Source: Candidatus Pacearchaeota archaeon (lineage in GTDB: Archaea > Nanobdellota > Nanobdellia > Pacearchaeales > GW2011-AR1). Taken from it: a DNA stretch of 64,000 nt. This document shows positions 2,242-17,661 of this stretch, in pieces. Under the pieces are notes generated by a model that was not told the DNA's origin, did no database searches, and was given only the letters and a program-made list of their open reading frames with translations. The number at the start of each line of letters is the position of its first letter. The first letter of the stretch is position 1. Where the stretch lies: the NCBI GenBank assembly GCA_050303855.1, contig JBNLCO010000010.1:124093-188092 (forward strand), in the 5' to 3' direction. The position numbers and the translations under genes were made by a program.

Positions 2242-2949
2242 ATGAATTTCATAAAAAAAGTTGCTGATAAGCATTTTGATGAGTCTGTTCATTTGCAGTT
2301 TCAAAAATTCTCTAAAGGAGAGTTCAGAAATAGGGCTATAATTGAAGCTAAAAATTCTAAAGGAAAATATACAATCAAAACTTCTGCGGAATTCTCCAAT
2401 GAACTCGTTAGAGATGTTGCTGAAAAACTTGGAAGTAATAAATCAAAAATTACAGGAGCGATTGTTTCTACCTCTGATCTAAAGGGAGAGTTAGAATTTA
2501 AAGAAGTTAAGCAATTTCAAGGCGTTAAAAGATATTTGATTGATAGTGAAATGTCGGGCGAGGAGATTATCAAGTTATTGGATAAATTCCCAAAGAATTT
2601 CTTTGCACTTTCTTTCAAATTGGAAGATGGAACTGAACTTAAGATAAAACCCAAAGCTCCTAAATCAGGAAAACCGGGGAAGGGAGAGGAAGCTCCTAAA
2701 GCAGATTTCTGTGTTTTGAAAACCACAGATAAAGATTTAGCAGAAGGATTTATCTTTGAGCAACCAATGTTTAAGACTGCAAAGATTAATCATACTTTCT
2801 TTATTGATAAAATAGAGATACCAGAAGATTTGAAGAGTTCTAAAGATTTTGCAATGATAAGGGAAATGTCAAAAAGAATTGGGAGAATTATAAGAAATGC
2901 TGAAATTGATGATAAAAAGCTTGAGGAAGAATTGAGCTTTGAGGCTTAA
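2242..2949 (+). CDS. hypothetical protein (235 aa), no family recognised
   Basis: Clean ORF with its own TATA-like box. Lys/Glu-rich soluble protein with a central KPKAPKSGKPGKGEEAPK linker. Confidence 0.6.
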   Translation: MNFIKKVADKHFDESVHLQFQKFSKGEFRNRAIIEAKNSKGKYTIKTSAEFSNELVRDVAEKLGSNKSKITGAIVSTSDLKGELEFKEVKQFQGVKRYLIDSEMSGEEIIKLLDKFPKNFFALSFKLEDGTELKIKPKAPKSGKPGKGEEAPKADFCVLKTTDKDLAEGFIFEQPMFKTAKINHTFFIDKIEIPEDLKSSKDFAMIREMSKRIGRIIRNAEIDDKKLEEELSFEA

Positions 2950-3069
2950 ATGAGGATTAGGCCTTTATTTGCATGGTATGATTTTTGGGTTGGATTATTT
3001 TGGGATAAAAACAAGAAAATACTCTATTTCTTTCCTATTCCCATGTTTGGACTAAAGTTCGTGTTCTGA
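2950..3069 (+). CDS. 39-aa micro-ORF (MRIRPLFAWYDFWVGLFWDKNKKILYFFPIPMFGLKFVF), putative small hydrophobic protein
   Basis: Below the ORF-track length cutoff. Its ATG directly follows the TAA of the upstream gene (TAA|ATG). It is aromatic-rich with a WYDFWVG..FWDK..K.LYFFP pattern. Confidence 0.35.
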   Translation: MRIRPLFAWYDFWVGLFWDKNKKILYFFPIPMFGLKFVF

Positions 3070-3171: not shown

Positions 3172-4128
3172 ATGCCAACAAGAAAATCACCAAGAAAAGG
3201 AAGCTTGCAATTTTGGCCTCGAAAGAGGATCAACAAATTTTTGCCTAGAGTTAACTGGAGTGCTATTAATTCTGATAAGAAATTGAAGGGATTTGTTGGA
3301 TATAAGGCAGGGATGGTTTCTGTTGAAGTTAAGGATTTAACTGCCAATTCAATGACTAAAGATAAGAAGATAATTATTCCGGCTACAGTTATTGAATGTC
3401 CTAAGATGAAAATCTTTTCGGTTAGATTCTACAAAAATGGGGTCGTTAAGAAGGATGTTTTAGCTGAACAATTCGACAAGGAACTTAAGAAAAAGGTTAA
3501 GGTTCCAAAAGAGAATAAATTGAAGCTTGATTCTGTAAAAAGTGAGAATTATGATGATGTTTCTGTTATTGCTTATACTGTTGTTAAGAAAACAGGATTG
3601 AAGAAGAAACCAGATATGGCTGAAATTGGTATTTCAGGTTCAAGTGTTGATGAGAAATTAAGTTTTGTTAAAGAGAATTTGAATAAAGAGTTGAGTGTTA
3701 CGGATTTATTCGCTTCAGGAGATTTAGTTGACTTTAGAGGTTTAACTAAAGGTAAAGGTCTTGTTGGTCCTGTAAAGAGATTTGGAATTACATTAAAAGC
3801 TCATAAGTCGGAGAAAGGTGTTAGAAGACCAGGTAATGTTGGTCCGTGGCATCCTGCAAGAGTTACTTTTAGAATCCCTATGGCAGGTCAATTAGGGAAG
3901 TTTACAAGAGTACATTATAATCAAAAAGTTATTGTAACTGGAAATGATGAAGAAGTTAAGAAATCTTTGAAAGCGATAAAGAACTATGGAAATGTTAACA
4001 TGGATTATGTTATTGTTTCTGGTTCAGTTCAAGGTCCAGCAAAGAGACAAGTGTTTATTACTGCTCCTTTGAGAAAAAGTAAAATGTCTGCAAAGAAGAA
4101 TTATGAATTCGGGAGAATATTGAGATAA
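3172..4128 (+). CDS. rpl3: 50S ribosomal protein uL3
   Basis: N-terminus MPTRKSPRKGSLQFWPRKR and the ...GKGLVGPVKRFG...GPWHPARV motifs; first gene of the S10-like cluster. Confidence 0.95.
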   Translation: MPTRKSPRKGSLQFWPRKRINKFLPRVNWSAINSDKKLKGFVGYKAGMVSVEVKDLTANSMTKDKKIIIPATVIECPKMKIFSVRFYKNGVVKKDVLAEQFDKELKKKVKVPKENKLKLDSVKSENYDDVSVIAYTVVKKTGLKKKPDMAEIGISGSSVDEKLSFVKENLNKELSVTDLFASGDLVDFRGLTKGKGLVGPVKRFGITLKAHKSEKGVRRPGNVGPWHPARVTFRIPMAGQLGKFTRVHYNQKVIVTGNDEEVKKSLKAIKNYGNVNMDYVIVSGSVQGPAKRQVFITAPLRKSKMSAKKNYEFGRILR

Positions 4129-4129
4129 A

Positions 4130-4375
4130 ATGGATATTGGAGAATCAATGGCGAAGAGAAAAATGATTGAAGAATTTAAGAAGTTAGAAATTGTAGCAGA
4201 AGCATTTTCTGAGGTTAAGGGGAATGTTGCTAAAGACAAAGATCTTGGGATGAGGATTGATGAAACAACAGAATTTCATTATAATATTAAAACAAATTAT
4301 GAAGAAGCAAAGGGAAAATTCGTTGGAGAAGATGGAATGCAATATGCTTTTGAAATAAGGAGATATAACGATTAA
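4130..4375 (+). CDS. ORFan A (81 aa) inserted between uL3 and uL4; acidic, no family recognised
   Basis: TAA-A-ATG junctions on both sides, identical to genuine r-protein junctions. By my count 18 D/E versus 14 K/R, so it is not r-protein-like. Confidence 0.6.
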   Translation: MDIGESMAKRKMIEEFKKLEIVAEAFSEVKGNVAKDKDLGMRIDETTEFHYNIKTNYEEAKGKFVGEDGMQYAFEIRRYND

Positions 4376-4376
4376 A

Positions 4377-5216
4377 ATGAAAACTAAAACATACGATTTA
4401 ACAGGGAAAGAAAAAGCAGAAATTGCATTACCCAAAGAATTTAGTTCTAAGGTAAGAGAAGATATTGTTTCTAAAGTTCTTGAAGCTGCAAAGAAACATC
4501 AACCTTACTCTCCAAGTCCTGTTGCAGGAAAACAACATTCTGCCAAAGGAAAGATTGTACATAGAAGACATGTTTGGAGAAGTGGTTATGGTAGAGGAGC
4601 ATCAAGAGTACCAAGAAAAATATTCTCACAGAAAGGTTCAAGATTTAATTGGGAAGCTGCAGAAGTTCCATTCGCAAGAGGCGGTATGAGAGCTCACCCT
4701 CCAAAGATAGAACACTTCTTAAAAGAACTTAAGATCAATAAGAAAGAATTAAAGATTGCTTTTGTATCTGCATTGAGTGCAACAGCTTCTGAAAAATATG
4801 TTGTTGATAAATATGCTACAGTAAATAAATTGAATAAAAAAGTGCCATTCATCTTAACTCTTGGAAATACTGAAAACTTGAAAGTTAAAGATTTACTTAA
4901 TGGTTTGAAAGGTATGCTTGGAGAAGAACTTTACAATATTGCAATAAAGAAAAAATCAATTAGGGCTGGAAAAGGAACAATGAGAGGTAGAAAATACAAA
5001 TCAAATGCAGGTATGCTTTTAGTTGTTGGAAAAGATGAAATTGGAAAAGTAAAAACTAAAATGTTTGAAGTTGTTTCGGCTGGAGAACTTGGAGTTACAG
5101 ATCTTGCCCGAGGAGGATTAGGAAGATTAACTGTTTATACTGAAAATTCTGTTAAAGAATTAGAAAATAAGTTTAATGGTAAAACTGAAAAGAAAGTGGA
5201 GGAAAAGAAAAAATGA
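4377..5216 (+). CDS. rpl4: 50S ribosomal protein uL4
   Basis: Contains ...HQPYSPSPVAGKQHSAKGKIVHRRHVWRSGYGRGASRVPRK...; position in the operon. Confidence 0.95.
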   Translation: MKTKTYDLTGKEKAEIALPKEFSSKVREDIVSKVLEAAKKHQPYSPSPVAGKQHSAKGKIVHRRHVWRSGYGRGASRVPRKIFSQKGSRFNWEAAEVPFARGGMRAHPPKIEHFLKELKINKKELKIAFVSALSATASEKYVVDKYATVNKLNKKVPFILTLGNTENLKVKDLLNGLKGMLGEELYNIAIKKKSIRAGKGTMRGRKYKSNAGMLLVVGKDEIGKVKTKMFEVVSAGELGVTDLARGGLGRLTVYTENSVKELENKFNGKTEKKVEEKKK

Positions 5217-5545
5217 ATAGTGTAGAAATTAAAGTTGTTGAAAATTGGGAAAAACCTGAAGTTTTCAGGACTTTAAAAGAAAAAGATTTGATAAGTGATA
5301 AAGAAGTTGTATTTGAATCCTTCAAGTTGAGAGGAGAAGGAACTTCTTTAATTCATACGCTCCAGAGAGTCAAGCCAGGAATTGTGAAGGTTAAAAAATA
5401 TTATTTTGAATCAGGTAAATTGAGCAGTAACGCAGGAGTGGATTATTGGACCAATTCACTGGATATAGGATATAATCCAGAAGCAAAATCAGATCAAATA
5501 CTTTATGATGCAGAAGATAAATTCCTAAGAGAGGCAGGATTATGA
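5213..5545 (+). CDS. ORFan B (110 aa) inserted between uL4 and uL23; no family recognised
   Basis: ATGA start/stop overlaps at both ends (5213-5216 and 5542-5545). GGAGG lies 10 nt upstream of its ATG (5198-5202). Confidence 0.6.
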   Translation: MNSVEIKVVENWEKPEVFRTLKEKDLISDKEVVFESFKLRGEGTSLIHTLQRVKPGIVKVKKYYFESGKLSSNAGVDYWTNSLDIGYNPEAKSDQILYDAEDKFLREAGL

Positions 5546-5778
5546 GACCAATAGCAACTGAAAAAGCAGTAATGAAAATTGAAGCAGAGAATGTAATGAC
5601 CTTTGAATTTGATAAAAGAATGAATAAAGAGGACATTAAGAAAGAAATTGAAGAGCTTTTAGATGTTAAAGTTGATTCGGTTAAAACGCAAATAAGAAAG
5701 AACAAGAAAATTGTTTACGCTAAATTAAATAAGAAGAACCTTGCAATTGATCTTGCAACTAAATTAGGAATGATGTAA
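5542..5778 (+). CDS. rpl23: 50S ribosomal protein uL23
   Basis: 78 aa, MRPIATEKAVMKIEAENVMTFEFDKRMNK...; operon position. Confidence 0.9.
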   Translation: MRPIATEKAVMKIEAENVMTFEFDKRMNKEDIKKEIEELLDVKVDSVKTQIRKNKKIVYAKLNKKNLAIDLATKLGMM

Positions 5779-5779
5779 A

Positions 5780-6478
5780 ATGGGAAAGAGAATAATACAA
5801 CAGGCACGGGGAAAGGGAAGTTCAACTTATAGAGTTAAGAGAAAAGCTTTCAGTCACAAAATCCAATATCCAAGAGGATTAACTGGAGAAGGAAGAATTG
5901 TAAAGTTATTCTTAACTGGTGGACATAGTGCTCCGCTTGCAAAGATAAACTGGTCTGGAGAGAGTTTTTATGTTCCTGCATTCAAAGGAATGGTTCAAGG
6001 AGAGAAGATTAATTTTGATTCAAAAGAAATTGTTAAAGGAAGTATCCTTGAGTTAGGAGATATTCCACTTAAGACAAAGATATTTTGCATTGAATCGAGA
6101 CCTGGAGATGGTGGAAAGTTCATAAAGACTGCAGGAAGTTCTGCAGAAGTTGTTAGAAGGGTCGGCAAAAATGTTCATGTATTAATGCCGTCGAAAAAAG
6201 AAAAACCTTTTAACCCGAAATGTCGGGCTATTATTGGTGAAGCTGCTGGTCATGGTAGAACAGACAAACCAATAATGAAAGCTGGAAAGCAACATCATAT
6301 TAAGAAAGCAAAAAGTAAATTATGGCCAAGAACAGGTGCATTGAAAGTTAATGCTATCGATCATCCTTTCGGTTCAGGTAGAGGAAAGAACCCTAAGAGC
6401 AAGATTGCAAAGAGAAATTCAGCTCCTGGTCAAAAGGTTGGTTTATTGAGACCAAGAAGGACAGGTAAGAGAAAGTAA
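5780..6478 (+). CDS. rpl2: 50S ribosomal protein uL2
   Basis: Contains MGKRIIQQARGKGSSTYR...AIDHPFGSGRGKN... Confidence 0.95.
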   Translation: MGKRIIQQARGKGSSTYRVKRKAFSHKIQYPRGLTGEGRIVKLFLTGGHSAPLAKINWSGESFYVPAFKGMVQGEKINFDSKEIVKGSILELGDIPLKTKIFCIESRPGDGGKFIKTAGSSAEVVRRVGKNVHVLMPSKKEKPFNPKCRAIIGEAAGHGRTDKPIMKAGKQHHIKKAKSKLWPRTGALKVNAIDHPFGSGRGKNPKSKIAKRNSAPGQKVGLLRPRRTGKRK

Positions 6479-6479
6479 A

Positions 6480-6848
6480 ATGGAAATGAAATTACAAACA
6501 ACTGGAATAAAGTATGAAAATCTAGTTGGAAAAGGATTAGAACTTTTTTGTGAAAGTGCGGTCAATAAAGATGAAAATGTTGTGGGAAGGTATCTTCCTG
6601 GAATTGAGGGACAAGAGATAACCTATTTAGGAAATTTAGGACATAGATTCGGAGAAAGAGATTTATTTGGATTTGAAGAAGACAATAAATTGACTGTCCT
6701 TGTTGGAAACATAAAAGACATTACTGGAAACAGGGCAACGTTAAGCACCTTTGTTCAAAGCATTTCCCCAAATTTTTACGGAACTGAAAATTTGAGTGAT
6801 GAGATTTTAAAACAATGCAAAGAGATTTTGTCAGGAGTAAAAGAATAA
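6480..6848 (+). CDS. ORFan C (122 aa) inserted between uL2 and uS19; no family recognised
   Basis: TAA-A-ATG junctions on both sides. Gly/Glu-rich, not basic. Confidence 0.6.
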   Translation: MEMKLQTTGIKYENLVGKGLELFCESAVNKDENVVGRYLPGIEGQEITYLGNLGHRFGERDLFGFEEDNKLTVLVGNIKDITGNRATLSTFVQSISPNFYGTENLSDEILKQCKEILSGVKE

Positions 6849-6849
6849 A

Positions 6850-7254
6850 ATGGTAGATATAGGATCACAAAAGAAACAATTCAAGTATCGAGGCAAAGAT
6901 ATTGAAGAGTTGAAGGCTTTAGATACTCGAGAGGTTGCAAAATACCTTGATTCGAGAGCTAGAAGAACTGTACTTAGAAACTTCCAAGAAATTGAGGATT
7001 TCCTTCAGAGAGCTAAGAGAAAACAATCAAAGAATAAGAAGATTAAAACTCATAAGAGAAAATTGATAGTTGTTCCTCAAATGGTTGGAATGCAAATCCA
7101 AGTACATAACGGAAGAATGTTTATTCCAATTGAGGTTGTCCCGGAGATGATCGGACATTATTTGGGAGAATTTTCATTAACAAGGGCAAAAGCTTCACAT
7201 AGTAAATCAGGAGTTGGTGCTACTAAGGGTAGTAGAGCCAAATCCAAGAAGTAA
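6850..7254 (+). CDS. rps19: 30S ribosomal protein uS19
   Basis: Contains ...IVVPQMVGMQIQVHNGRMFIPIEVVPEMIGHYLGEFSLTR... Confidence 0.95.
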   Translation: MVDIGSQKKQFKYRGKDIEELKALDTREVAKYLDSRARRTVLRNFQEIEDFLQRAKRKQSKNKKIKTHKRKLIVVPQMVGMQIQVHNGRMFIPIEVVPEMIGHYLGEFSLTRAKASHSKSGVGATKGSRAKSKK

Positions 7255-8760: not shown

Positions 8761-9060
8761 ATGGAAATAGATCCAAAAACAGGATTGCCAGTTCAGGCAA
8801 TGGAGTGGGAAGACCTTGCAAAGGGTTCCCAAAAAATACGGGTAACGACCGATAAAAAAAGATACGGAAAGATCGTTACTCTAGTGAGTGGTTTCGACAA
8901 AGGAATCGACATAAAGAAAACCGCAAAGGCATTGAAGAATGAACTTGCGTGTGGCGGGACCTTTAAGGACGATGCAGTTGAACTGCAAGGAGACCACACA
9001 AAGAAAGTAAAGCAAGTCCTTGTAAAAATGGGATTTGACGAAAGCTCCATAGAAGACTGA
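8761..9060 (+). CDS. translation initiation factor SUI1 (aSUI1/eIF1 family)
   Basis: 99 aa, ...IRVTTDKKRYGKIVTLVSGFD...LKNELACGGTFKDDAVELQGDH... is the typical SUI1 core. Confidence 0.9.
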   Translation: MEIDPKTGLPVQAMEWEDLAKGSQKIRVTTDKKRYGKIVTLVSGFDKGIDIKKTAKALKNELACGGTFKDDAVELQGDHTKKVKQVLVKMGFDESSIED

Positions 9061-11493: not shown

Positions 11494-11760
11494 ATGGCAA
11501 ATAAAATAACTTTAAAGAATAGGGAGAAATTGAGGGAAGAGCTTGAGAAGTTAGTTGTACAAGTTGATGAGATAAACGACTTCATGGGGCAGTTACCTCA
11601 TAACAATCATGGGCAGGCAACTAGGAGCTTAAACCCTAAGAAAGGTGAATATTTAAGTCACTTTGATGGAAATAGCGAAGGCATAGTTGGAAAATATCGT
11701 TCAAAAAATGGAGAGGTTTATACTATTAGCGTATCAAAAGAATACGGAGGTGGAAAATAA
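11494..11760 (+). CDS. ORFan D (88 aa) inserted between uL5 and uS14; no family recognised
   Basis: TAA-A-ATG junctions on both sides. N-terminal helical K/E segment, then PHNNHGQ and a C-terminal EYGGGK. Confidence 0.6.
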   Translation: MANKITLKNREKLREELEKLVVQVDEINDFMGQLPHNNHGQATRSLNPKKGEYLSHFDGNSEGIVGKYRSKNGEVYTISVSKEYGGGK

Positions 11761-15523: not shown

Positions 15524-15742
15524 GTGTCCGAGTACTATAAGGGCAAAAAAATTAATGGCGAGCTTATTTGCGGAGTGAGTGATCAGGGAAACTACAATCC
15601 TATAATTACAACCGTTTCAAAGTCAGAGGACGAGAATTTAAGGAATACTTATGTTCTCAAAGAAGACATCCTTGAGTTTGTCAAGGCCGATCCGCTAACA
15701 GACAAACAAGCTAGAAATTACATAAACAAATCAAAAAGATAA
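15524..15742 (+). CDS. ORFan E (72 aa, GTG start) inserted between uL30 and uL15; no family recognised
   Basis: TGA-A-GTG junction upstream and TAA-A-ATG downstream. Sequence MSEYYKGKKINGELICGVSDQGNYNPIITTVSK... Confidence 0.5.
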   Translation: MSEYYKGKKINGELICGVSDQGNYNPIITTVSKSEDENLRNTYVLKEDILEFVKADPLTDKQARNYINKSKR

Positions 15743-16266: not shown

Positions 16267-17661
16267 ATGGCAAATCTTACGAAGATATTCTCTTTAATTC
16301 CTGAAGTTAGGAATCCAGATGAAAAGAAGCTAGCTTTTAATGTGAAGCTTAAGTGGACACTTGTTGTATTGATAGGATTTTTTATTTTAGCAAACATACC
16401 TTTGTTTGGTTTGACGAATAATGCTTTGGAGAGATTCCAATATTTAGCTATAATTTTAGGGACAGATTTTGGTTCAATAATTTCTTTAGGTATTGGTCCG
16501 ATCGTTATGGCTTCGATTATATTGCAGTTGTTAACGGGAGCGGGTATTTTAAACATAAATACAAACACTGCAGAAGGAAAGAAGTTTTTCCAAGGAGTTC
16601 AGAAATTAATGGTGTTCTTCTTTATATTATTTGAAGCCACAGTTTATGTATTAATGAAAGGTCTTGAAGCTGCCCCTGGACTTGCAGGAATAGTTATCTT
16701 CCAACTTATAATTGGAGGTATTGCGATTTACTATATGAATGAACTTTGTGAAAAATGGGGATTCGGTTCGGGAGTTAGTTTGTTCATTGCAGCGGGAGTA
16801 TCTTGGAATCTATTTACTGGTGCATTCCAGTTCATAAATCAGCAAGGTAGAAACTGTCTTGCAGATTTCTCGGGAACTGCATGTTCAGGAAAGATTTTCG
16901 TATTAATACAATCAATTGTGAATAAGTACCCTGTTGAATTTATGTCCGCACTTGGGGCTATTGTAGCAACGGTTGCTATATTTTTGTTGGTAGTTTGGGC
17001 CCAATCGCTTAAGGTAGAAATTCCTTTGAGTTTTGGAAGAATTAGAGGATATGGTGTAAAGTGGCCTTTGAGTTTCTTCTACGCTTCAGTTATCCCTGTT
17101 ATTTTAACTGCTGCTTTAGTTGCAAACATACAACTATTTGGAGGGCTTTTGGAGAATTGGAGAGGTCATGCAACATTCCTAGGTCATTTCGTAAATGGTC
17201 AGGCAGTGTCCGGTTTAGGGTTCTGGCTTGGGCATACGAATTTGCTTGAATTGGCAATAAGAGGAGGATTCTTACCTAGGTTCTTAGTCCAAGGATTGAC
17301 GCACATAATATTCTATACTGGACTTGCAATGTTGTTCTCGATATTTTGGGTTAAAAGTTCTGGAATGGACTCAAAAGCTCAAGCTCAAAAGATATCTTCA
17401 TCAGGATTACAAGTTGCAGGTTTCAGACAAGATAACAGAGTTTTGGAAAGCATATTAGATAGATATATAATGCCTTTAACAGTTATGGGAGGAGCGGCAA
17501 TAGGATTGCTAGCTGCTTTAACAGACTTGTTAGGTGCTATGGTTTCAGGAACAGCGATACTTTTGGTTATCATGATAATGTTCCAATTCTATCAGAGTAT
17601 TGCACAACAACACATGACAGATATGAATCCTGCTATGAGGAAGTTTATGGGAAATGCATAA
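16267..17661 (+). CDS. secY: preprotein translocase subunit SecY
   Basis: 464 aa, 10-TM-like profile, ...LGIGPIVMASIILQLL...; canonical position after uL15. Confidence 0.95.
   Translation: MANLTKIFSLIPEVRNPDEKKLAFNVKLKWTLVVLIGFFILANIPLFGLTNNALERFQYLAIILGTDFGSIISLGIGPIVMASIILQLLTGAGILNINTNTAEGKKFFQGVQKLMVFFFILFEATVYVLMKGLEAAPGLAGIVIFQLIIGGIAIYYMNELCEKWGFGSGVSLFIAAGVSWNLFTGAFQFINQQGRNCLADFSGTACSGKIFVLIQSIVNKYPVEFMSALGAIVATVAIFLLVVWAQSLKVEIPLSFGRIRGYGVKWPLSFFYASVIPVILTAALVANIQLFGGLLENWRGHATFLGHFVNGQAVSGLGFWLGHTNLLELAIRGGFLPRFLVQGLTHIIFYTGLAMLFSIFWVKSSGMDSKAQAQKISSSGLQVAGFRQDNRVLESILDRYIMPLTVMGGAAIGLLAALTDLLGAMVSGTAILLVIMIMFQFYQSIAQQHMTDMNPAMRKFMGNA

What the first reader, a model, noticed from the sequence alone, without database searches (positions are those of the whole stretch)
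6480..6848. ORFan C: a 122-aa ORF between uL2 and uS19
This is the largest of the inserted ORFs, with TAA-A-ATG junctions at both ends. The sequence is Gly/Glu/Asn-rich (...GRYLPGIEGQEITYLGNLGHRFGERDLFGFEEDNKLTVLVGNIKDITGNRATLSTF...) and suggests a small beta-rich domain. As far as I know, the uL2-uS19 junction is contiguous in Archaea.
Basis: seen in the sequence. Interest (0 to 1): 0.5.

Follow-up and report, generated by a model that had tools for sequence, protein, structure and literature searches.

The report
Orphan gene cassette inside ribosomal-protein operon
A real but orphan 122-residue gene sits seamlessly between ribosomal-protein genes uL2 and uS19 of a tiny DPANN archaeon, and it is one of many unrelated small genes that come, go and change slots inside this normally very conserved operon in its relatives.

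Summary
The ORF is real: 6480-6848 (+), 122 aa, with TAA-A-ATG junctions to uL2 and uS19. It is protein-coding. It has no internal stop (2-13 stops in the other frames), native composition, and codon position 2 is the most conserved. It matches no Pfam, NCBIfam, PADLOC, PHROGs, PDB, phage or plasmid entry.

An exhaustive search of 1.84 billion representatives found one true homolog (41% identity). That homolog lies in the same operon of a related archaeon but in the neighbouring slot, uL23|uL2. The sister genomes lack the gene: one has an unrelated membrane-protein ORF in the slot and another has an empty slot. AlphaFold (two sequences, pLDDT 75) predicts a beta-rich domain plus a C-terminal helix with no significant structural neighbour.

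In 161 related loci, 15% have the uL2|uS19 junction occupied and 57% have at least one of five junctions occupied, by about 80 mostly orphan families. Several families change slots, and one also occurs outside the operon and in an array that looks like a mobile element.

Inserts start with the displaced gene's first codons (ATGGAA: 8/13 families at uL2|uS19 vs 0/61 elsewhere) and carry a Shine-Dalgarno sequence for the displaced gene.

Best reading: a promoter-less accessory gene cassette that does not disturb expression of the downstream genes. It is not a core ribosomal protein. Its biochemical function is unknown.

The parts
5780..6478 (+). uL2 gene. Its 3' end (ACAGGTAAGAGAAAG, 6461-6475) is the conserved pre-start region that precedes uS19 in relatives with an empty junction.
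   Evidence: Pfam Ribosomal_L2_C 2.8e-32. The same ACAGGTAA..TAA-A-ATG context precedes uS19 in L003, L013, L014.
6476..6482 (+). Left junction TAAAATG: uL2 stop, one base, orfC start.
   Evidence: Read directly.
6480..6848 (+). orfC: 122-aa soluble protein, pI 4.85, no TM segment. Predicted beta strands at 19-24, 46-55, 58-67, 70-76, 78-82, 85-88, then a C-terminal helix at 107-117.
   Evidence: Homolog P0005 at E 1.5e-18.
6480..6488 (+). ATGGAAATG: the first three codons are identical to the uS19 start of the empty-site relative L003. ATGGAA is the usual uS19 start in the clade.
   Evidence: ATGGAA in 64/102 empty-site uS19 starts. 8/13 insert families at this slot vs 0/61 at other slots, Fisher p 8.5e-8.
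6833..6837 (+). AGGAG Shine-Dalgarno-like string inside the last codons of orfC (..SGVKE), 12 nt before the uS19 ATG.
   Evidence: SD-like 5-mers occur in the last 21 nt of 56% of inserts vs 11% of internal windows.
6846..6852 (+). Right junction TAAAATG: orfC stop, one base, uS19 start.
   Evidence: Read directly.
6850..7254 (+). uS19 gene, displaced downstream. Its N-terminus is MVDIGSQKKQFKY, compared with MEMQKKQFKY in the empty-site relative L003.
   Evidence: Pfam Ribosomal_S19 1.2e-26.
4130..4375 (+). orfA: 81-aa orphan insert at uL3|uL4, same class.
5213..5545 (+). orfB: 110-aa orphan insert at uL4|uL23, same class. It has a syntenic weak homolog in the sister genome L001.
11494..11760 (+). 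88-aa orphan insert at uL5|uS14, same class.
15524..15742 (+). 72-aa orphan insert at uL30|uL15, same class.

Best explanation
orfC is a genuine protein-coding, promoter-less accessory gene cassette slotted into the uL2|uS19 junction of the S10-type ribosomal-protein operon of a Pacearchaeota/Woesearchaeota-type DPANN archaeon.

How it is expressed (read from the sequence, then inferred): there is no room for its own promoter or terminator, so it must ride on the operon transcript. It starts exactly where uS19 starts in relatives with an empty junction: one base after the uL2 stop, behind the same conserved uL2 3' end, and with the same first codons ATGGAAATG. Its last codons contain an AGGAG 12 nt upstream of a re-created TAA-A-ATG junction that restarts uS19. 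The insertion therefore does not interrupt translation of the downstream ribosomal-protein genes.

How it evolves (shown by comparison): it is one instance of a clade-wide, rapid turnover of unrelated small ORFs at ribosomal-protein gene junctions. Families are gained, lost, replaced and moved between slots. orfC's only homolog sits one slot upstream, at uL23|uL2.

What the protein does (inferred, weakest step): it is a small soluble beta-rich binding-type domain with a C-terminal helix. It is dispensable and fast-evolving. It is most likely an accessory passenger that benefits from ribosomal-protein-level expression, not a constituent of the ribosome.
For: Real gene: no internal stop vs 2-13 stops in the other frames; dN 0.56 / dS 1.07; codon-position identity 0.54/0.68/0.50; native GC and GC3. 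Full-length homolog P0005 (E 1.5e-18, 41% identity) with conserved Gly and hydrophobic positions. AlphaFold pLDDT rises from 39.7 to 74.7 when the homolog is added.

Seamless junctions and a donated SD. Start shared with the displaced gene: (Fisher p 8.5e-8). No promoter, terminator, RNA family or flanking repeat.

Slot change: P0005 lies between uL23 and uL2 in L081, also with TAA-A-ATG on both sides.

Patchy distribution: the tree ((L081,L003),((L084,(L001,WIN)),L004)) has the family only in WIN and L081. Sister L001 has an unrelated 127-aa ORF with hydrophobic stretches in the slot, and L002/L084 have it empty.

Clade-wide pattern: 64/112 loci have at least one of five junctions occupied; 137 ORFs fall into 80 families, 60 of them singletons. 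Only the exonuclease family has a Pfam domain. Other slot-changing families: L131 (5.5e-21) and L156 (6e-44). The L156 family is also found at uS3|uL29, outside the operon, and in an array with Bro-N, MazE-like and Fic genes.
Against: Only two family members exist, so selection, structure and mobility all rest on one pairwise comparison. dS is saturated. Two of the five AlphaFold models are confident and three are not. Both family members lie next to uL2, and both are in the ribosomal operon, which would also fit a uL2- or ribosome-linked role. There is no expression data. No insertion machinery or diagnostic end sequences were found, so 'cassette' describes the behaviour, not a demonstrated mechanism. 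The shared ATGGAA start could reflect selection on the initiation region rather than the insertion event. The locus set is partly redundant, because some metagenome loci duplicate genome loci. It also covers only relatives with at least 64% uL2 identity. The protein's biochemical activity is not identified.
Confidence: 0.6

Rival explanations
1. orfC is a lineage-specific ribosome-associated protein: an extra ribosomal protein, or an assembly factor or chaperone for uL2. It is made in step with ribosomal proteins because it works with them.
Confidence: 0.2
2. orfC is a translated spacer. The inserted DNA is kept as an open frame only so that ribosomes keep translating through to uS19, and the peptide itself has no function.
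For: These inserts show extreme diversity and turnover, and 60/80 families are singletons with no domain. Their 3' ends are shaped by the need to carry an SD for the next gene. dN/dS is relatively high, at about 0.5.
Against: A 122-codon open frame does not arise or persist by chance at a 6% stop frequency. Codon position 2 is the most conserved. 48 residues are identical across a divergence at which dS is saturated, including 6 Gly and 23 hydrophobic positions. AlphaFold finds a consistent fold once the homolog is added. The family survived a change of slot.
Confidence: 0.1
3. orfC is a captured fragment of an Ig-like repeat from a giant surface adhesin, meaning it is homologous to the repeats of P0006/P0007.
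For: phmmer E-values of 5.9e-16 and 9.5e-15 against two giant repeat proteins. There is a 33-residue motif match, G.xDxxGxE..N.L.L..G.IKD..GN..TL, at 42% identity. hhalign gives 69% probability over 38 columns.
Against: The E-values come from 11-13 near-identical repeats each matching weakly; a single repeat scores only 26.9 bits, which is far below significance in a library of 2.4e11 residues. The match covers a quarter of the protein. The repeat unit itself has no Pfam hit. No Ig-like structure appears among the fold-search neighbours.
Confidence: 0.05
4. It is not a gene: a chance ORF in a spacer, or an assembly artefact.
For: No annotation name, no known family, and a singleton cluster at 90% identity.
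Against: See the observation check: the frame statistics, the coding pattern of substitutions, the homolog in an independent assembly (Logan SRR22048058), and exact one-base junctions on both sides.
Confidence: 0.03

Closest known systems
Non-ribosomal genes natively embedded in archaeal ribosomal-protein clusters (aIF1/SUI1, RNase P protein Rpp29, adenylate kinase, SecY)
   Same: They are co-directional, tightly packed, and expressed from the ribosomal superoperon. SUI1 (8761-9060) and SecY (16267-17661) are present in this window.
   Different: From general knowledge, those genes are widely conserved, have fixed positions and have known translation or secretion roles. orfC has two known members, is absent from sister genomes and changes slot.
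Phage 'morons' (extra genes inserted between conserved genes of a syntenic array)
   Same: These are variable, unrelated small ORFs found at gene boundaries of an otherwise conserved, co-transcribed gene array. They differ between close relatives.
   Different: Morons typically bring their own promoter and terminator (general knowledge). orfC has one-base junctions and no such signals. It has no phage or viral homolog by sequence or fold. The host array is a cellular ribosomal operon.
Integron gene cassettes
   Same: These are promoter-less ORFs expressed from an upstream promoter, forming a highly diverse and mostly orphan cargo that changes between relatives.
   Different: There is no attC-like inverted repeat, no spacer in which one could sit, and no integrase nearby. 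The junction is the operon's own TAAAATG stop/start consensus.
Small beta-barrel domains (CooT, Tudor, Sm-like, PRC barrel of RimM, SH3-like bL19)

Membership tests
Known ribosomal protein or translation-factor families (Pfam, NCBIfam) | Significant match to a curated family model | tested here: not met
   The best Pfam hit is DUF7624 at E 0.038, 14.5 bits against a cut-off of 27. NCBIfam gives none. P0005 also gives none.
Known ribosomal protein or translation-factor families (Pfam, NCBIfam) | Conserved presence and position across related genomes | tested here: not met
   Absent from L001, L002/L084, L003 and L004. Present only in WIN and L081, in different slots.
Known ribosomal protein or translation-factor families (Pfam, NCBIfam) | Physical association with ribosomes | not testable with these tools
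   Needs proteomics or cryo-EM of an uncultivated lineage.
Ig-like repeat of giant surface proteins (P0006/P0007 type) | Homology over the whole repeat unit (about 118-126 aa) | tested here: inconclusive
   Only 33-38 residues align. A single repeat scores 26.9 bits. hhalign probability is 69%. The phmmer E-values are inflated by 11-13 repeats.
Small beta-barrel fold class (SH3/Sm/Tudor/PRC) | Significant structural superposition on a member | tested here: inconclusive
Integron gene cassette | attC recombination site at the 3' end of the cassette, and an integrase/attI platform | tested here: not met
   There is one base between the stop and the next start on both sides, and no inverted repeat at the ends.
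Phage moron / prophage gene | Own promoter and terminator; homologs in viral genomes | tested here: not met
   No promoter or terminator excess. No hit in IMG/VR, BFVD, PHROGs or INPHARED.
Anti-phage defence or toxin-antitoxin components (PADLOC) | Match to a defence-system protein model | tested here: not met
   No PADLOC family for orfC. Among 74 insert representatives, only the exonuclease matches.
Diverged duplicate of a neighbouring ribosomal-protein gene | Profile-profile similarity to uS19, uL2, uL23, uL22, uL4 or uL3 | tested here: not met
   hhalign probability is 2% or less for all six. N-terminal similarity to uS19 beyond the first codons is not above background (empirical p 0.1-0.5).

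The most novel reading that the evidence does not exclude
In Pacearchaeota/Woesearchaeota-type DPANN archaea, the stop/start junctions of the ribosomal-protein superoperon act as a dedicated landing platform for promoter-less gene cassettes. An incoming ORF takes over the start and first codons of the displaced ribosomal-protein gene, and it delivers a new Shine-Dalgarno sequence and start for that gene, so operon expression is preserved. Cassettes such as orfC then shuffle between junctions, and to and from mobile elements, through the shared TAAAATG-type junction sequence. This would be a previously undescribed way of acquiring and expressing accessory genes in ultra-small genomes that have few promoters.
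Probability: 0.3. Interest if true: 0.75.

Novelty: new variant of a known kind. Interest (0 to 1): 0.55.

Why it matters
The S10/spc ribosomal-protein array is the most conserved gene order in prokaryotes and is generally treated as closed to insertion. Here, in one DPANN clade, more than half of the loci carry unrelated orphan genes spliced seamlessly between ribosomal-protein genes, and the window itself carries five. These inserts have sequence features that keep downstream translation intact: they reuse the displaced gene's start and donate a Shine-Dalgarno sequence.

If this is a specific process, it would explain how genome-reduced archaea with few promoters acquire and express new genes. 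It would also provide a large set of highly expressed unknown proteins to test for roles in the ribosome, in symbiosis or in virus interactions.

There is a practical consequence too. Phylogenomic and binning pipelines that assume contiguous ribosomal-protein genes, and annotators who read 'inside the ribosomal operon' as 'ribosomal function', would be misled in this clade.

Tried and rejected
1. A superfamily of inserts defined by a shared C-terminal '..L..AG[ILV](W)' tail (seen). Rejected. The tails coincide with in-frame Shine-Dalgarno strings for the next gene (GCAGGAGT, GAGGCAGGA), or with the uL2 start read out of frame. A profile of orfC+P0005 finds no other insert (best E 1.3 among 3120 ORFs).

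2. An acidic chaperone for basic uL2. Weakened. The homolog has pI 8.93, and the inserts as a class are not acidic.

3. A diverged duplicate of uS19 or another neighbour. hhalign probability is 2% or less. The extended N-terminal resemblance to uS19 is not above background.

4. Homology to giant adhesin repeats. The E-values are inflated by repetition and hhalign gives 69%, so this stays inconclusive.

5. Viral, plasmid or defence origin of orfC. No hits in IMG/VR, BFVD, PHROGs, INPHARED, PLSDB or PADLOC.

6. A source or paralog of orfC DNA elsewhere in the window or loci, by blastn and tblastx. None found.

7. RNA elements, promoters, terminators or terminal repeats around the insert. None beyond the junction consensus.

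8. More family members, using a two-sequence profile on the 5.8-billion-protein index and a metagenome pattern scan. None found. An exact-sequence look-up of orfC's own contig also failed.

9. A single-sequence AlphaFold model was unusable (pLDDT 39.7).

10. The afdb50 fold library was not available.

11. Enrichment of Gly and hydrophobic residues among the conserved positions is only a trend (p 0.098).

12. Literature searches found no description of such inserts. The one paper on archaeal ribosomal gene clusters that I wanted to read is not held.

Full report
**Observation**

The window carries an archaeal S10-type ribosomal-protein operon on the + strand. The gene order is uL3 (3172-4128), uL4 (4377-5216), uL23 (5542-5778), uL2 (5780-6478), uS19 (6850-7254), uL22, uS3, uL29, SUI1, uS17, uL14, uL24, eS4, uL5 and onward to SecY.

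Between uL2 and uS19 lies an ATG-to-TAA ORF, 6480-6848, of 122 aa. The heptamer TAAAATG (stop, one base, start) sits at 6476-6482 and again at 6846-6852.

Four more ORFs with no family match sit at other junctions:
- 4130-4375, at uL3|uL4
- 5213-5545, at uL4|uL23
- 11494-11760, at uL5|uS14
- 15524-15742, at uL30|uL15

**Is it a gene?**

The evidence says yes.
- Stop trinucleotides make up 6.15% of the window, so 123 open codons have a chance probability of about 4e-4. The other five frames of the region contain 2-13 stops.
- GC (0.328), GC3 (0.236) and the GC1>GC2>GC3 pattern match the neighbouring genes.
- An exhaustive phmmer search of 1.84 billion cluster representatives found one full-length homolog, P0005 (117 aa, E 1.5e-18). 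It is 41% identical, with 48 invariant positions.
- Against that homolog, dN is 0.56 and dS is 1.07 (saturated). Codon-position identities are 0.54/0.68/0.50, the pattern expected of a protein under purifying selection.
- The flanking ribosomal-protein genes have dN of 0.12-0.27, so orfC evolves 2-5 times faster than they do.

**What family?**

None that is described.
- Pfam, NCBIfam, PADLOC, PHROGs and PDB sequences (searched with both the single sequence and the profile) give nothing significant.
- The phage, plasmid and viral-contig collections give nothing.
- The word-indexed search of 5.8 billion proteins finds only orfC itself and P0005, even with the two-sequence profile.

Two giant repeat proteins (P0006, P0007) reached E of about 1e-15 in phmmer. 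That comes from 11-13 near-identical repeats each matching a 33-residue motif of orfC (residues 58-90). One repeat alone scores 26.9 bits. A profile-profile comparison gives 69% probability over 38 columns. I treat this as an unproven local resemblance.

**Structure**

AlphaFold on the single sequence failed (pLDDT 39.7). With the two-sequence alignment, two of the five models reach pLDDT of about 75 and pTM 0.75. They show six beta strands between residues 19 and 88 and a C-terminal helix at 107-117.

The protein has no TM-like segment and pI 4.85. The homolog's pI is 8.93, so the acidity is not conserved.

**Where is the homolog?**

P0005 is encoded on a 3.3-kb contig (L081) from an independent assembly. 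The order there is uL3, a 90-aa ORF, uL4, uL23, P0005, uL2. So the homolog is in the same operon but one slot upstream (uL23|uL2), again with TAA-A-ATG on both sides.

A neighbour-joining tree of concatenated uL3+uL4+uL23 gives ((L081,L003),((L084,(L001,WIN)),L004)). The family is present only in WIN and L081.
- The window's sister L001 (85% identity) has an unrelated 127-aa ORF with two hydrophobic stretches at uL2|uS19, and another unrelated ORF at uL23|uL2.
- L002/L084 and L003 have uL2|uS19 empty.

The family's distribution is therefore patchy and its position is not fixed.

**The wider pattern**

I anchored on uL2 and collected 80 loci from GTDB species representatives and 80 from metagenomes. 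All are labelled Pacearchaeota, Woesearchaeota or Nanoarchaeota, with 64-83% uL2 identity.

Junctions with a gap of at least 150 bp (one search gives 12/76 at uL2|uS19 for the species-level set alone):

| Junction | Occupied / scored |
|---|---|
| uL3\|uL4 | 41/123 |
| uL4\|uL23 | 42/144 |
| uL23\|uL2 | 27/155 |
| uL2\|uS19 | 23/151 |
| uS19\|uL22 | 7/137 |

- Of 112 loci where all five junctions could be scored, 64 have at least one occupied. The set is partly redundant.
- The 137 insert ORFs fall into 80 families, 60 of them singletons.
- Of 74 family representatives, only one family has a Pfam or PADLOC domain: a DEDDh/RNase T exonuclease of about 200 aa, recurrent at uL4|uL23.

Besides orfC, other families occupy different junctions in different genomes:
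- the L131 family: uL4|uL23 vs uL22|uS3, E 5.5e-21
- the L156 family: uL3|uL4 vs downstream of uL2, E 6e-44
- two or three weaker cases

The L156 family has 20 homologs. Their contexts are:
- uL3|uL4, in three genomes
- uS3|uL29
- a non-operon site beside a Glx-tRNA synthetase gene, in two contigs
- a co-directional array with Bro-N, MazE-like and Fic genes that looks like a mobile element

One locus has a HAD hydrolase at uL23|uL2. The cargo is heterogeneous and is not confined to the operon.

**How the inserts fit into the operon**

Three features point to insertions that leave expression of the downstream genes intact.

1. *Junctions.* They are the operon's normal stop/start style, TAAAATG or an ATGA overlap.

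2. *A donated Shine-Dalgarno sequence.* The last 21 nt of the inserts carry an SD-like 5-mer in 56% of cases, against 11% for internal windows. orfC has AGGAG at 6833-6837, 12 nt before the uS19 ATG. P0005 has GGAGG before uL2. This also explains why many unrelated inserts end in similar peptides such as '..AGL' or '..AGIW'. I first took that for homology and then rejected it.

3. *A shared start.* Inserts begin like the gene they displace. At uL2|uS19, 8 of 13 independent families start ATGGAA, which is the start of uS19 in 64/102 empty sites. None of 61 families at other junctions does (Fisher p 8.5e-8). In L102, L023, L006 and L019, 11-16 nt including the ATG are repeated at the insert start and at the displaced gene's start. 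orfC starts ATGGAAATG, identical to the uS19 start of the empty-site relative L003, and it follows the same conserved uL2 3' end.

The similarity does not extend further. orfC is not a diverged copy of uS19 or of any neighbour (hhalign <= 2%; N-terminal test p 0.1-0.5).

Around orfC there is no Rfam family, no promoter or terminator excess, and no terminal repeat beyond the junction consensus.

**Interpretation**

Shown:
- orfC is a real coding gene of a two-member orphan family.
- It is inserted seamlessly.
- It is absent from sister genomes.
- Its only homolog is in another slot.
- It is one case of a clade-wide turnover of junction inserts.

Inferred:
- It is transcribed from the operon promoter and translated from the initiation region that otherwise serves uS19, while its own 3' end re-initiates uS19.
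- The protein is a dispensable accessory passenger rather than a ribosome constituent. Patchiness, fast evolution, non-conserved charge, and the heterogeneity of what occupies these slots all point that way.

A ribosome- or uL2-linked role remains possible (about 0.2), because both members flank uL2. Given how often each slot is occupied, that adjacency has a chance probability of roughly 0.2, and no structural or sequence evidence supports the role. A 'translated spacer' with no protein function is less likely, given the substitution pattern and the predicted fold.

The biochemical function is unknown. My best guess is a small binding module.

**Novelty**

I found no description of such inserts in the searchable literature, which is not proof that none exists. 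The gene itself is an ordinary DPANN orphan. What is unusual is where it sits and how it behaves: the most conserved gene array in prokaryotes is permissive here, and the inserts share features that preserve operon translation.

I rate it a new variant of a known kind (accessory genes at hotspots, moron-like or cassette-like), with moderate interest. The more novel reading is a dedicated junction-mediated cassette platform, to which I give about 0.3.

Noticed in passing
L005:3762-4415, L019:3965-4585, L020:3607-4260 and 26 further loci (uL4|uL23 junction); also L164:1726-2472: A DEDDh/RNase T-type 3'-5' exonuclease of about 200-245 aa (motifs DIETSG ... HNALED) recurs between uL4 and uL23 in 29 loci of this clade. 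It is the only junction insert with a recognisable domain and a stable position, which makes it a candidate rRNA/tRNA-processing enzyme co-expressed with ribosomal proteins. It is absent from the window, where orfB occupies that slot.
   Followed up: partly
window 4130-4375, 5213-5545, 11494-11760, 15524-15742: Four more orphan ORFs (81, 110, 88 and 72 aa) are inserted at uL3|uL4, uL4|uL23, uL5|uS14 and uL30|uL15, with no Pfam, NCBIfam or PHROGs match. Only orfB has a weak syntenic homolog in the sister genome (L001:4132-4437; 51% identity over the first 36 residues).
   Followed up: partly
window 8761-9060: The SUI1/aIF1 gene inside the operon has a clearly higher GC content than its neighbours (GC 0.427 and GC3 0.42, against about 0.33 and 0.25).
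   Followed up: no
L012 (DATKUW010000029.1): A contig labelled 'Bacillota bacterium' carries an archaeal S10-type operon whose uL2 is 70% identical to the window's. It is probably a mis-binned or mislabelled DPANN contig.
   Followed up: no
L167:1-5485: A member of the L156 insert family (2501-3007) sits in a co-directional array of small ORFs with Bro-N, MazE-like, FG-GAP and Fic domain genes. This looks like a virus or other mobile element of these archaea and hints at where the junction cassettes come from.
   Followed up: no
L166:4363-4821; L163:2382-2699 and 4459-4725: Other cargo in ribosomal slots: a HAD-family hydrolase at uL23|uL2; two consecutive ORFs between uS3 and uL29 (the second, L163:2382-2699, is an orphan); and an orphan between uL24 and eS4. 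Inserts therefore also occur further down the operon and can stack.
   Followed up: no
window 2242-2949; L162:763-1467: A protein of about 235 aa with no Pfam match lies immediately upstream of uL3 in the window. An ORF of the same size and position (234 aa, no Pfam) is present in L162. This may be a conserved unknown gene at the head of the operon. Homology between the two was not checked.
   Followed up: no
L016:1014-1388, L035:2711-3037: Some inserts at uL23|uL2 end 16 nt inside uL2, reading the conserved uL2 start (ATGGGnAAAAGAATAA) out of frame as '..IW.KE*'. This produces a convergent C-terminal peptide in unrelated ORFs.
   Followed up: yes
P0006 (3759 aa), P0007 (2269 aa): Full-sequence phmmer E-values of about 1e-15 to these giant repeat proteins arise from 11-13 copies of a weak motif of about 27 bits. 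This is a caution that repeat proteins inflate significance in the exhaustive search.
   Followed up: yes
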